This document shows, in pieces, positions 7,313 through 7,972 of a stretch of 8,535 bases of DNA (position 1 is the stretch's first letter; each line of letters begins with the position of its first letter). Below the pieces are notes generated by a model. It searched no databases and had not been told where the DNA came from. It saw only the letters and a list, made by a program, of their open reading frames with translations. Source of the DNA: a virus; UHGV virus genome UHGV-1434900; one strand, written 5' to 3'. The translations under genes were made by a program, and so were the position numbers.

Positions 7313-7621
7313 ATGGATTCTTATGGGATTTTATCTGCTCTGGCAGAACGAACGATTACAGCGGAAGAAGCAAAAACAATGACACTTGCAGCCAGAAGTT
7401 CTTCGGCTCAGGTAAATGAAGCATCACTTGCTCTGTTACTGATTGATAATACTCTGGATGCGATCAAAGCAGCTGCCAGTGAAGGGAAAGGATACACTTT
7501 ACTTCCTTCTTATGAGATTTCTTTAAAAGCCATTGATTTAGCAGAAGAATTTTTAAGGAAACAATGCGGCTATGTTATTGATAACCAGAATGGCGTAAGG
7601 ACGGTCTATTGGTTTATATGA
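7313..7621 (+). CDS. Hypothetical protein, 102 aa (Ala/Leu/Glu-rich, probably helical); cargo-position gene
   Basis: ORF with GGGG SD-like at 7303-7306; translation looks protein-like; about 41% GC like the phage; no family recognised. Confidence 0.5.
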   Translation: MDSYGILSALAERTITAEEAKTMTLAARSSSAQVNEASLALLLIDNTLDAIKAAASEGKGYTLLPSYEISLKAIDLAEEFLRKQCGYVIDNQNGVRTVYWFI

Positions 7622-7624
7622 TAA

Positions 7625-7665
7625 CCCCGGACAGTGACAAAACTTGCTTTTGTTAGTGTCCGGGG
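7625..7665 (+). terminator. Long near-perfect hairpin (CCCCGGACA...TGTCCGGGG, about 17 bp stem) after the 102-aa ORF; T-run follows at 7688-7696
   Basis: Inverted repeat read from sequence; the T-run is about 22 nt downstream, so it may be a terminator or an intergenic-region structural hairpin (Ff minus-strand-origin-like). Confidence 0.4.
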
Positions 7666-7738
7666 TTGGCCAAGCCGAACAATTCTGTTTTTTTAGCGTT
7701 ATTGCTGATTCGGCGCGGCAGCATTACGAGGAGATAAA

Positions 7739-7972
7739 ATGCAATTTTTCACATCCAGCGATACTGTAATGTTATGTGCGAAGACCTGCGATCGCTGTGG
7801 TCGCCATGCGAAGACGGTGGTAGATGACATTGAGTTCAATGAGTTTCTGTCTGTTAATCACTTAGCTGGATACGGTTCAATTTTTGGTGACAGTAATCGC
7901 TTAAAACTGGATTTATGCCAACATTGCCTGAAAGACGTCCTGGGCCAGTGGATTACGGTCTGTGACCAATGA
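7739..7972 (+). CDS. Hypothetical small protein, 77 aa, with two CxxC pairs (CDRC...CQHC; putative zinc ribbon); cargo-position gene
   Basis: Strong SD GAGGAG 7728-7733 five nt before the ATG; two CxxC motifs 43 residues apart; no family recognised with confidence. Confidence 0.5.
   Translation: MQFFTSSDTVMLCAKTCDRCGRHAKTVVDDIEFNEFLSVNHLAGYGSIFGDSNRLKLDLCQHCLKDVLGQWITVCDQ

What the first reader, a model, noticed from the sequence alone, without database searches (positions are those of the whole stretch)
7313..7972. Two small genes between gIV and dif occupy the cargo position
In Ff phages the region after gIV is a non-coding intergenic region. Here it contains a 102-aa helical protein and a 77-aa CxxC-pair protein, each with its own SD and separated by a long hairpin. 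Their position, between the morphogenesis genes and the attachment site, is where CTXphi carries ctxAB, so they are candidates for lysogenic-conversion, regulatory or anti-defence functions.
Basis: inference. Interest (0 to 1): 0.6.

Follow-up and report, generated by a model that had tools for sequence, protein, structure and literature searches.

The report
Two accessory genes of CUS-1 prophage
The two small genes after the secretin gene are real, conserved accessory genes of the known E. coli/Yersinia filamentous prophage CUS-1/YpfΦ. They sit in two swappable cargo slots next to the dif attachment site, were already described as function-unknown ORFs, and are still of unknown function.

Summary
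The window is a CUS-1-type filamentous prophage integrated in tandem at E. coli dif. Both ORFs exist exactly as described: 7313-7621 (102 aa) and 7739-7972 (77 aa, two CxxC pairs). Each has an SD, and a 20-bp-arm hairpin lies between them. Both are real genes: they stay intact in relatives at 61-71% amino-acid identity, with dN/dS 0.13 and 0.06.

They correspond to YPO2280a/YPO2281 of YpfΦ. A 2014 review already calls these function-unknown ORFs next to attR, at the place where CTXφ carries ctxAB. The finding is therefore not new.

New here:
- The gIV-dif region reads as an Ff-like intergenic region split by two variable slots: gIV, hairpin hp0, [ORF-A or another gene], conserved two-hairpin element hp1/hp2, [ORF-B or one of at least four other inserts], attP.
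- ORF-A is a lineage-restricted acidic ORFan with only a weak winged-helix-like fold.
- ORF-B belongs to a large unannotated family of acidic Cys4 zinc-ribbon proteins (1,236 clusters). It occurs in tailed phages, inoviruses, plasmids and transposons, and is sometimes fused or adjacent to type II antitoxin modules.

No toxin, virulence or defence homology was found. The "cargo position" reading is supported; the function is unresolved.

The parts
5978..7243 (+). gIV secretin gene, the last morphogenesis/secretion gene before the region
   Evidence: Pfam Secretin 5.7e-43, GspD N0 and Secretin_N. RefSeq CDS WP_001258048.1.
7239..7287 (+). hp0: a 49-nt hairpin overlapping the gIV stop codon. Candidate packaging signal or end-of-operon structure.
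   Evidence: Arms 7239-7258 and 7268-7287, 90% complementary. DNA fold z = -6.9. It is kept as a hairpin with very different stem sequences but the same apical GGGTGCG..GCCC in every relative with a CUS-1-type gIV (win, L003, L016, L024, L062, L058). No T-run follows, so it is not a canonical intrinsic terminator.
7303..7306 (+). Weak Shine-Dalgarno (GGGG) of ORF-A
   Evidence: Read from the sequence; 6 nt before the ATG at 7313.
7313..7621 (+). ORF-A: a 102-aa acidic (pI 4.7) alpha/beta protein, the homologue of YpfΦ YPO2280a. It occupies variable slot 1.
7623..7667 (+). hp1: a 45-nt near-perfect hairpin, the first half of the conserved two-hairpin element
   Evidence: Fourteen distinct variants were aligned. 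Pairing is kept in 92% of cells, with 4 pairs changed on both sides and an invariant G·T wobble that works only on the + strand. hp1-like hairpins also occur on plasmids.
7669..7719 (+). hp2: the second hairpin, with a T-rich variable loop and a conserved base (GCC..GCCGAA / TTCGGC..GGC)
   Evidence: Fold. In one search, helix 2 is 94.6% paired, and an inserted C-G pair is present on both sides in 4 of 14 variants. The whole element is 78-86% identical between phage lineages and a plasmid-like contig, where neighbouring third codon positions are 55-69% identical.
7728..7733 (+). Strong Shine-Dalgarno (GAGGAG) of ORF-B
   Evidence: Read from the sequence; 5 nt before the ATG at 7739. The leader ...GCGCGGCAGCATTrCGAGGAGATAAAATG is conserved in the plasmid-like contig copy L006.
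7739..7972 (+). ORF-B: a 77-aa acidic (pI 5.4) Cys4 zinc-ribbon-type protein, the homologue of YpfΦ YPO2281. It occupies variable slot 2.
   Evidence: ORF; RefSeq CDS; phrog_5435 at 4.5e-46, function unknown. dN/dS is 0.06 against the plasmid-like contig homologue at 71% identity. The family has 1,236 representative clusters. Conserved residues are C17, D18, C20, E35, G44, S47, F49, G50, D51, D58, C60, Q61 and C63.
7973..8010 (+). Short conserved spacer between the ORF-B stop and the XerC arm of attP/dif
   Evidence: Similar sequence (..AACGCCAG.T.C...CC.T.CC.TTGGTGCGCATAATG) precedes dif/attP in L003, L011 and L012.
8011..8038 (+). dif site reconstituted at the right prophage end (attR). Phage-derived sequence ends at about 8025.
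   Evidence: Exact 28-nt dif. Matches to genomes in which a further prophage copy follows end at 8025 (H16-H20). The junction between tandem copies reads GGTGCGCATAATGTACGACTCGTTATGTTGAAA.

Best explanation
**Shown.** ORF-A and ORF-B are two independent, genuinely translated accessory genes (morons) of the CUS-1/YpfΦ filamentous prophage. They are not part of the replication or morphogenesis machinery. They sit in two separate variable slots that interrupt an Ff-like intergenic region: gIV, hp0, [slot 1: ORF-A], hp1/hp2, [slot 2: ORF-B], attP/dif.

**Inferred, cis elements.** The hairpins are the cis-acting single-strand signals that occupy this place in Ff phages. hp0 tracks the virion module and is the candidate packaging signal. 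hp1/hp2 tracks gV (and usually gII), also occurs on plasmids, and is the candidate minus-strand origin or single-strand initiation signal.

**Inferred, expression.** The genes are most likely expressed by read-through from the phage + strand operon rather than from a promoter of their own.

**Inferred, ORF-B (about 0.35).** ORF-B is an acidic Cys4 zinc-ribbon (treble-clef-like) protein of a very large mobile-element family. It most likely acts by protein-protein binding in conflicts between mobile elements, toxin-antitoxin modules and the host. It is not a secreted toxin.

**Inferred, ORF-A (about 0.3).** ORF-A is a lineage-specific acidic alpha/beta protein, possibly winged-helix-like. It most likely modulates the phage's own life cycle or host interaction through protein binding.
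For: **Identity of the element.** The window is 100% identical to tandem prophages at dif in E. coli. It carries a full Ff-type gene set: Phage_CRI/G2P_X_C, G5P, Zot and Secretin.

**Real genes.** dN/dS is 0.13 for ORF-A and 0.06 for ORF-B, in the range of the core genes (0.03-0.23). Homologues remain intact at 57-82% identity. Both exact proteins are seen on at least 1,000 contigs.

**Independence of the two genes.**
- ORF-A occurs without ORF-B in Salmonella (L003-L005, L020).
- ORF-B occurs without ORF-A in another inovirus lineage (L011, L012).
- ORF-B also occurs on a plasmid-like contig (L006), on Klebsiella IncF plasmids and in tailed-phage contigs.

**Variable slots.**

**hp1/hp2 conserved and structured.** 91% of cells are paired, against 31-58% when the structure is slid. 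Eight pairs changed on both sides, reached by 0 of 500 shuffles. The G·T wobbles work only on the + strand. The element is more conserved than silent sites of the neighbouring gene.

**What the hairpins track.**
- hp1/hp2 goes with gV (86-94%) and usually gII (84-94%), across two unrelated virion modules (gIV 92-97% versus 26-29%).
- hp0 goes with the CUS-1-type gIV.
- In f1 the packaging hairpin is recognised by the virion proteins pVII/pIX (PMC10175506).

**ORF-B family.**
- 1,236 clusters, with no Pfam, NCBIfam or PDB sequence match.
- The domain is acidic in 91% of 150 representatives.
- 8 of 150 carry a C-terminal Xre/MbcA/ParS toxin-binding domain and 1 carries TacA1.
- In L136/L137 a member lies directly downstream of an Xre-HTH+MbcA_C antitoxin gene.
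- Other neighbours include HicA, HigA-like HTH, GNAT and TniQ.

**No own promoter and no intrinsic terminator** were found in 7000-8200.
Against: - No experiment or expression data were available, so the functions of both proteins are inferred only from context.
- In tailed phages ORF-B relatives have no conserved neighbour. The antitoxin link rests on a minority of family members.
- The promoter scan is a simple consensus scan and could miss a real promoter.
- The roles assigned to hp0 and hp1/hp2 are positional and co-variation arguments. L011 keeps hp1/hp2 with a gII that tblastn does not match. hp1 travels with ORF-B onto a plasmid-like contig, so hp1/hp2 could instead be a regulatory leader or a recombination junction.
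Confidence: 0.6

Rival explanations
1. ORF-A and ORF-B are small nucleic-acid-binding regulators: ORF-A a winged-helix protein and ORF-B a zinc finger. They would tune phage or host transcription, or act on the neighbouring attP or hairpin DNA.
Against: Both proteins are acidic (pI 4.7 and 5.4). The ORF-B domain is net negative in 91% of representatives, with a median charge of -4, which is unusual for DNA binders. No HTH or zinc-finger Pfam family reaches threshold. The models are of low to moderate confidence. ORF-B relatives sit in unrelated genomic contexts with no common target DNA.
Confidence: 0.2
2. ORF-A and ORF-B form a toxin-antitoxin-like addiction pair, with the antitoxin upstream and the toxin downstream, that stabilises the prophage or episome.
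For: The two are small, co-oriented genes at the end of a mobile element. ORF-B relatives occupy the position downstream of an Xre-HTH+MbcA_C antitoxin with no RES toxin nearby (L136/L137), or are fused to that antitoxin domain. A related phage carries an addiction-antidote-like gene in the same slot (L028). Accessory toxin-antitoxin systems are known in inoviruses (PMC12328805, title and abstract seen).
Against: The two genes occur independently of each other. They are 117 nt apart, with two hairpins and separate SDs. ORF-B is standalone in most of its family, with no conserved partner. ORF-B is acidic, whereas type II toxins are typically basic (own knowledge). Neither protein matches any toxin or antitoxin model.
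Confidence: 0.08
3. They are lysogenic-conversion virulence cargo in the sense of ctxAB: factors acting on the animal host that explain the modest virulence contribution of CUS-1/YpfΦ.
For: They occupy the same relative position as ctxAB. YpfΦ deletion raises the LD50 about sevenfold, and CUS-1 is linked to fitness in vivo (PMC4266046). The element is found mostly in human isolates.
Against: There is no toxin or effector homology in any library searched. ORF-B relatives are abundant in environmental phages and non-pathogens, including Betaproteobacteria and metagenomes. No own promoter was detected. The published CUS-1 fitness defect came from an insertion in puvA, a virion protein gene, not in these ORFs.
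Confidence: 0.05
4. The ORFs are chance open frames in an untranslated intergenic region.
For: In Ff phages this region is non-coding (established knowledge). The region is rich in conserved DNA hairpins.
Against: dN/dS is 0.13 and 0.06 with saturated silent sites. Third codon positions are 55-69% identical, against 77-92% at first and second positions. The frames are intact in all diverged relatives. ORF-B has more than 1,200 related clusters.
Confidence: 0.02

Closest known systems
YPO2280a and YPO2281 of Yersinia pestis phage YpfΦ, and their homologues in E. coli K1 prophage CUS-1 (Gonzalez et al. 2002; Derbise et al. 2007; review PMC4266046)
   Same: Same phage family, same position immediately next to attR/dif, same number of ORFs. 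The review states that CUS-1 is 99% identical to YpfΦ over the 7.1-kb segment that includes these two ORFs.
   Different: Nothing essential: this is the same pair. I did not align the Y. pestis sequence itself. The identification rests on the published description and on the window being a CUS-1-type prophage at dif.
ctxAB of Vibrio cholerae phage CTXφ
   Same: Accessory genes placed between the assembly genes and the XerCD/dif attachment site of a dif-integrating filamentous phage. The slot is variable among relatives.
   Different: There is no sequence or family relationship. No secretion signal or toxin homology was found. No own promoter was detected. The ORF-B family is widespread outside pathogens.
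Intergenic region of Ff phages (f1/fd/M13): packaging-signal hairpin, two-hairpin minus-strand origin, plus-strand origin
   Same: It lies after gIV on the + strand. Here there is a long hairpin right after gIV (hp0), then two adjacent hairpins (hp1, hp2), all strand-specific and conserved. The packaging hairpin is read by virion proteins, and hp0 tracks the virion module.
   Different: Here protein genes are inserted between the hairpins. No sequence similarity to the f1 nick site was found. No promoter-like hexamers were recognised in the hairpins. No functional test was done.
Xre/MbcA/ParS-type (DUF2384) type II antitoxins and other toxin-antitoxin modules
   Same: 8 of 150 ORF-B-family representatives carry the Xre_MbcA_ParS_C toxin-binding domain at their C-terminus and 1 carries TacA1. 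Two loci have an ORF-B relative right after an Xre-HTH+MbcA_C gene.
   Different: The window protein is the bare 77-aa domain, with no antitoxin domain and no toxin neighbour. Most family members are standalone.
PHROG families phrog_4115 (ORF-A) and phrog_5435 (ORF-B)
   Same: Full-length matches at 2.9e-68 and 4.5e-46.
   Different: Both PHROGs are annotated 'unknown function', so membership gives no mechanism.

Membership tests
Ff-like dif-integrating filamentous prophage (CUS-1/YpfΦ type) | Gene set gII, gV, gVIII, gIII, gVI, gI (Zot) and gIV (secretin) on one strand | tested here: met
   Pfam Phage_CRI 6.2e-69, G2P_X_C, Putative_G5P 7.4e-51, Zot 2.6e-40, Secretin 5.7e-43. RefSeq annotation of coat, attachment and DUF5455 proteins.
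Ff-like dif-integrating filamentous prophage (CUS-1/YpfΦ type) | Integration at chromosomal dif, with an intact dif at the right end and tandem copies | tested here: met
   Exact dif at 8011-8038. Tandem copies are seen in NZ_CP122448.1 and ECONIH2. Median 2 and up to 16 places per genome.
Protein-coding gene (both ORFs) | Frame kept in diverged relatives, with an excess of silent over replacement changes | tested here: met
   ORF-A: 61% amino-acid identity, dN 0.25, dS 1.9. ORF-B: 71% amino-acid identity, dN 0.18, dS 2.9. Codon-position identities are given.
ctxAB-like lysogenic-conversion cargo | Variable, dispensable position between the assembly genes and attP | tested here: met
   Alternative occupants or empty slots occur in relatives that share gII/gV and hp1/hp2.
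ctxAB-like lysogenic-conversion cargo | Own promoter active in the lysogen | tested here: inconclusive
   No sigma-70-like site upstream of either ORF in a simple consensus scan. No expression data.
ctxAB-like lysogenic-conversion cargo | Product is a secreted toxin or effector that changes the host phenotype | tested here: not met
   No toxin or effector family hit. The phenotype itself is not testable here.
Type II toxin-antitoxin pair (ORF-A + ORF-B) | Two genes that are tightly linked and co-inherited | tested here: not met
   There is a 117-nt spacer with two hairpins. Each gene occurs without the other.
Type II toxin-antitoxin pair (ORF-A + ORF-B) | Homology of either product to a known toxin or antitoxin family | tested here: not met
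   None for the window proteins. Only some distant ORF-B relatives are fused to antitoxin domains.
Cys4 zinc-ribbon / treble-clef zinc finger (ORF-B) | Two conserved CxxC pairs, the second at the start of a helix | tested here: met
   C17 97%, C20 100%, C60 100%, C63 100% of 150 representatives. The model places a helix at 61-68, right after C60.
Cys4 zinc-ribbon / treble-clef zinc finger (ORF-B) | Fold match to solved zinc fingers, and bound zinc | tested here: inconclusive
Winged-helix DNA-binding protein (ORF-A) | Winged-helix fold | tested here: inconclusive
Winged-helix DNA-binding protein (ORF-A) | Basic DNA-contacting surface, or an HTH sequence signature | tested here: not met
   pI 4.68, net charge -4.5. 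No HTH family in Pfam.
Ff packaging signal (hp0) | Long + strand hairpin directly after gIV that co-varies with the virion proteins | tested here: met
   It is present with every CUS-1-type gIV (75-97% identity) examined.
Ff packaging signal (hp0) | Orientation-dependent packaging of DNA that carries it | not testable with these tools
   Needs a phagemid transduction assay.
Ff-type minus-strand origin / single-strand initiation signal (hp1/hp2) | Two adjacent hairpins that are stable only in the + strand, conserved above the neutral rate | tested here: met
Ff-type minus-strand origin / single-strand initiation signal (hp1/hp2) | RNA polymerase or primase priming on the single strand | not testable with these tools
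   No promoter-like hexamers were recognised by eye. Needs an M13 Δori(-) complementation or in vitro priming assay.
Intrinsic (Rho-independent) terminator (hp0, hp1) | G+C-rich hairpin followed by a T-run | tested here: not met
   The scan found 0 terminator-like sites in 7000-8200. The hairpins are followed by AAATGG and GGCCAA.
Known RNA family (Rfam) for the spacer or leader | Covariance-model match | tested here: not met
   No match in the window at E <= 1.

The most novel reading that the evidence does not exclude
ORF-B may define a large, so far unrecognised family of acidic Cys4 zinc-ribbon proteins that are functional partners of MbcA/ParS-type (DUF2384) antitoxin modules. That would make it a new kind of toxin, antitoxin accessory or anti-defence effector, carried as a standalone moron by filamentous and tailed phages, plasmids and transposons. 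In addition, the hp1/hp2 element next to it may be a portable single-strand DNA signal shared by inoviruses and plasmids.
Probability: 0.15. Interest if true: 0.65.

Novelty: already known. Interest (0 to 1): 0.33.

Why it matters
CUS-1/YpfΦ is carried by extraintestinal pathogenic E. coli and by the pandemic lineage of Y. pestis, and it gives a modest fitness advantage in vivo. Its end-of-genome ORFs are the obvious candidates for that effect, and the published review lists their function as an open question.

This analysis does not solve the function, but it narrows it:
- The two genes are independent cargo in two swappable slots, not a pair.
- ORF-B is not a pathogen-specific factor. It belongs to a very large, unannotated mobile-element family with links to toxin-antitoxin modules.
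- The conserved hairpins between the genes are probably the phage's single-strand cis signals. Anyone deleting these ORFs needs to know this, because removing the hairpins could cripple the phage for reasons unrelated to the proteins.

Tried and rejected
**Known protein families.** Pfam, NCBIfam, PADLOC and PHROGs gave no functional annotation for either protein.

**Solved structures.** A profile search for the ORF-B family returned only chance zinc-knuckle matches at E >= 0.1.

**Structure prediction and fold search.**
- ORF-A: moderate model, with non-specific winged-helix-like matches in PDB and nothing informative among viral predicted structures.
- ORF-B: poor model and weak matches.
- The afdb50 library was unavailable.

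**Other similarity searches.**
- ORF-B is not related to the 'ECs_2282 putative zinc-binding protein' found in a variant prophage copy.
- Rfam search of the window and two relatives: nothing.
- Search for the f1 gII nick-site sequence: none.
- The GenBank phage collection has no DNA match to 7244-8040.
- A profile of 150 sequences was too diverse for the search for related loci; the 6-sequence profile was used instead.

**Ideas rejected.**
- hp1 as an integron attC site. Only AAC/GTT at the stem base fits, not the 7-bp R''/R' boxes (by reading).
- hp0 or hp1 as intrinsic terminators. No T-run follows.
- An HNH or His-Me nuclease reading of ORF-B. There is no conserved histidine: H62 is present in only 61% of representatives.
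- Xre_MbcA_ParS_C domains in the long Polaromonas-type fusions (L135, L143). Pfam shows only a weak HTH_17, so those loci are not used as evidence.

**Literature.** Searches for YPO2281, puvA and CUS-1 found no functional study of these ORFs. Gonzalez 2002 and Cathelyn 2006 are not in the held library.
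Full report
**What the window is.** The 8,535-nt window is 100% identical to a chromosomal stretch of several extraintestinal E. coli strains. It carries a complete Ff-type filamentous-phage gene set on the + strand:
- gII (Phage_CRI + G2P_X_C)
- gV
- G7P-2
- major coat protein
- attachment protein
- DUF5455 (the gVI position)
- Zot-type gI
- a secretin, gIV

Small divergent genes lie on the - strand at the left. The element sits in tandem copies between hipBA and a perfect dif site. This is the CUS-1 prophage of E. coli K1, the near-twin of Yersinia pestis YpfΦ (PMC4266046).

**Observation check.** RefSeq annotates both as hypothetical proteins.
- ORF-A has a weak SD (GGGG, 7303-7306). 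ORF-B has a strong one (GAGGAG, 7728-7733).
- The hairpin between them has 20-nt arms at 7623-7642 and 7648-7667.
- The spacer folds far better than shuffles (z = -5.8) into two adjacent hairpins, hp1 (7623-7667) and hp2 (7669-7719).
- A third hairpin, hp0 (7239-7287), overlaps the gIV stop codon (z = -6.9).
- ORF-B has two CxxC pairs. ORF-A is predicted alpha/beta rather than purely helical.

**Are they genes?** Yes.
- ORF-A has a Salmonella homologue at the same place with 61% amino-acid identity and dN/dS 0.13.
- ORF-B has a homologue on a plasmid-like contig with 71% identity and dN/dS 0.06.
- The core phage genes compared in the same way give 0.03-0.23. Silent sites are saturated, so the ratios are approximate, but the direction is unambiguous.
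- Between lineages, third codon positions of ORF-B are 55-69% identical, against 77-92% at positions 1 and 2.
- All diverged homologues keep the frame.
- The exact proteins occur on at least 1,000 contigs each.
- The region is present at >= 99% identity in 49 of 5,426 complete E. coli genomes, with a median of two copies and up to 16.

**Already known.** Derbise & Carniel (2014) write that two ORFs of YpfΦ, YPO2280a and YPO2281, lie immediately next to attR and have no predictable function. They add that CUS-1 has their homologues within a 7.1-kb segment of 99% identity, and that CTXφ carries the cholera-toxin genes at this position. Searches for YPO2281, puvA and CUS-1 found no later functional work.

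**Anatomy across relatives.** I collected related loci through the proteins and through the hairpin sequence. The region resolves into fixed cis elements and two variable slots.

*Slot 2, between hp2 and attP.* The hp1/hp2 element, ending in GCGCGGCAG, is found in 14 distinct variants. Downstream of it, before attP, relatives carry one of the following:
- ORF-B (CUS-1, L011, L012)
- a 58-69-aa protein of phrog_6642 (L015, L030, L037)
- a 145-aa protein (L025)
- an addiction-antidote-like gene (L028; dnstrm_HI1420, 1.6e-5, below the curated cut-off, on a contig that ends there)
- no gene, with a roughly 300-nt non-coding block in L003 and L020

*Slot 1, between gIV/hp0 and hp1.* Upstream of hp1, relatives carry ORF-A (CUS-1, Salmonella), an unrelated basic 82-aa ORF (L016, L024, L062), or nothing (L058).

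ORF-A and ORF-B therefore occupy two different swappable slots, and each occurs without the other.

**The hairpins.**
- On the 14-variant alignment the two-hairpin structure is paired in 91% of cells, against 31-58% when slid by 1-3 columns. Eight pairs changed on both sides (shuffles: 3.2 ± 0.8; 0 of 500 reach 8). A C-G pair is inserted on both sides in four variants.
- One G·T wobble is invariant and others are common. The fold is therefore favoured on the + strand, which by analogy with Ff (own knowledge) is the packaged strand and has mRNA sense.
- The element is 78-86% identical between lineages where silent sites of the adjacent gene are 55-69% identical. It is under selection.
- It has no Rfam match, no T-run and no promoter-like site.
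- Phages that share hp1/hp2 share gV (86-94%) and mostly gII (84-94%). They carry two unrelated morphogenesis modules, with gIV at 92-97% or only 26-29% identity to the window.
- hp0 is found with every CUS-1-type gIV. Its stem is rewritten but still pairs, and it keeps the apex GGGTGCG..GCCC.

In f1 the packaging hairpin is recognised by the virion tip proteins pVII/pIX (PMC10175506). The minus-strand origin is two adjacent hairpins read by host RNA polymerase (own knowledge: Zinder & Horiuchi 1985; Higashitani et al. 1997). My inference is that hp0 is the packaging-signal candidate and hp1/hp2 the minus-strand-origin candidate.

Two points argue for caution. First, hp1/hp2 travels with ORF-B onto a plasmid-like contig (L006). 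Second, hp1-like hairpins occur elsewhere on plasmids: within the transfer-gene region of an E. coli IncF plasmid (annotated between traD and traG) and after a hicB gene in Yersinia frederiksenii. That fits a host-read single-strand signal. It also fits a recombination junction or a regulatory leader.

**ORF-B.**
- Close relatives are few, but a profile search of 1.84 billion representatives finds 1,236 clusters at E <= 1e-3 and 613 at <= 1e-10.
- The motif is CDxCG, then about 11-14 residues, then E.xEF..[ST][IV], then GGYGS[IV]FGDG, then D[LIF]CQxC...LG. Cysteines 17, 20, 60 and 63 are 97-100% conserved, together with D18, E35, S47, D51, D58 and Q61.
- There is no Pfam, NCBIfam or PDB sequence match.
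- The domain is net negative in 91% of 150 representatives.
- About 40% of representatives are bare domains of <= 90 aa. The rest carry extensions: 8 of 150 have the Xre/MbcA/ParS antitoxin toxin-binding domain at the C-terminus, 1 has TacA1 and 2 have DUF4926.
- In tailed-phage contigs the gene stands alone with no conserved neighbour, for example between terminase and portal genes.
- In bacterial genomes it lies in mobile contexts: after tniQ, next to HicA, next to a HigA-like HTH gene, before a GNAT, and directly after an Xre-HTH+MbcA_C antitoxin gene with no RES toxin nearby.
- It also occurs on Klebsiella IncF plasmids near the iro cluster.

**Most likely mechanism.**
- *Shown:* both are translated accessory genes in variable slots of a known prophage.
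- *Inferred, ORF-B:* it is a zinc-stabilised, acidic, protein-binding module used by many mobile elements, functionally linked to toxin-antitoxin or conflict systems (about 0.35). A DNA-binding regulator role is the main rival (about 0.2), weakened by the acidity.
- *Inferred, pairing:* a toxin-antitoxin pair made of ORF-A and ORF-B is unlikely (0.08), because the genes are inherited independently.
- *Inferred, virulence:* a ctxAB-like virulence factor is unlikely (0.05). There is no toxin homology, and the family is common in environmental phages and non-pathogens.
- *Inferred, expression:* with no promoter or terminator recognised, expression by read-through of the phage operon is the default. 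That points to a role during phage production or establishment rather than in the silent lysogen. This step rests on a simple scan and is weak.

**Verdict.** The finding itself is already in the literature, so novelty is 'already known' and interest is modest. Three things could repay follow-up: the large unannotated ORF-B family with its antitoxin fusions, the conserved two-hairpin element shared with plasmids, and the modular layout of the gIV-attP region.

Noticed in passing
L003 10420-10730; L011 8350-8680; also L004, L005, L020 (not in the window): A conserved non-coding block of about 300 nt lies between hp2 (or ORF-B) and attP in related phages. Variable columns are spread 21/19/24 over the three codon phases, and there are 1-nt and 5-nt indels. 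It has a long-range inverted repeat, GCAGTTGTAAACAA...TTGCTTACAACTGC. Rfam, run on L011 only of these loci, gave no match. It may be a structured RNA or a single-strand DNA element.
   Followed up: partly
window 1368-7243 compared with L011, L012, L015, L025, L030, L037 and others: Phages sharing gII (84-94%), gV (86-94%) and hp1/hp2 carry two unrelated morphogenesis modules, with gIV 92-97% or only 26-29% identical to the window. L011 keeps gV and hp1/hp2 but has a gII that tblastn does not match. This indicates strong modular recombination.
   Followed up: partly
L178 6001-6058 (E. coli IncF plasmid NZ_CP027343.1); L179 5001-5052 (Y. frederiksenii plasmid): hp1-like hairpins (AACGCCGG...GTGACAAA...TTTGTT.C...CCGGGGTTG) occur on plasmids away from any ORF-B. 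One lies within the transfer-gene region (annotated between traD and traG) and one directly after a hicB gene. The stems show compensatory changes and a conserved G·G mismatch. This looks like a dispersed hairpin family on enterobacterial mobile elements.
   Followed up: partly
L002 12108-13313 (ECONIH2, second tandem copy), corresponding to window 1-1116: The attL-side - strand genes differ between tandem copies in one strain. One copy has the window's 230-, 91- and 46-aa genes. The next copy has three other genes, including an 'ECs_2282 family putative zinc-binding protein' that is unrelated to ORF-B. The window's left end cuts inside the 693-nt - strand gene WP_000382466.1.
   Followed up: partly
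L001 3723-3825 (junction between tandem copies, just left of the window start): The junction site reads GGTGCGCATAATGTACGACTCGTTATGTTGAAA. It is followed by a G+C-rich hairpin and, by eye, an inverted dif-like sequence (reverse complement GGTTCGCACAATGACGTTATGCT). This fits the pair of inverted XerC/XerD sites proposed for YpfΦ in PMC4266046.
   Followed up: no
NZ_CP092647.1 (E. coli EC5502): Sixteen places match the 768-nt ORF-A/ORF-B region in one chromosome, against a median of two per genome. This is an unusually large amplification of the prophage.
   Followed up: no
Proteins P0005, P0024 and cluster members P0173-P0185: Database proteins join the N-terminus of gII to the C-terminal part of ORF-A or ORF-B, for example on contigs of 3.5 kb and 1.6 kb. 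One such cluster has 70 members. They are either assembly artefacts of tandem or circular copies, or deleted mini-genomes.
   Followed up: no
L006 4225-4458 and 4674-5156; L146 downstream gene: On the plasmid-like contig, the ORF-B homologue is followed by a 77-aa coiled-coil ORF and then, about 200 nt further, a GNAT acetyltransferase. A Thiobacillus locus also has a GNAT 20 nt after an ORF-B relative, and one family member is fused to a TacA1 antitoxin domain. This hints at a possible link to GNAT-type toxin modules.
   Followed up: no
window 8226-8516 (- strand): The host flank to the right of dif is a truncated LysR-family regulator pseudogene in the source genome.
   Followed up: no
NZ_CP140410.1 (Salmonella, 7,938 bp); 7-13-kb Proteus and Providencia 'plasmids': Small records deposited as plasmids encode ORF-B or relatives at 49-100% identity. 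They are probably replicative forms of filamentous phages.
   Followed up: no
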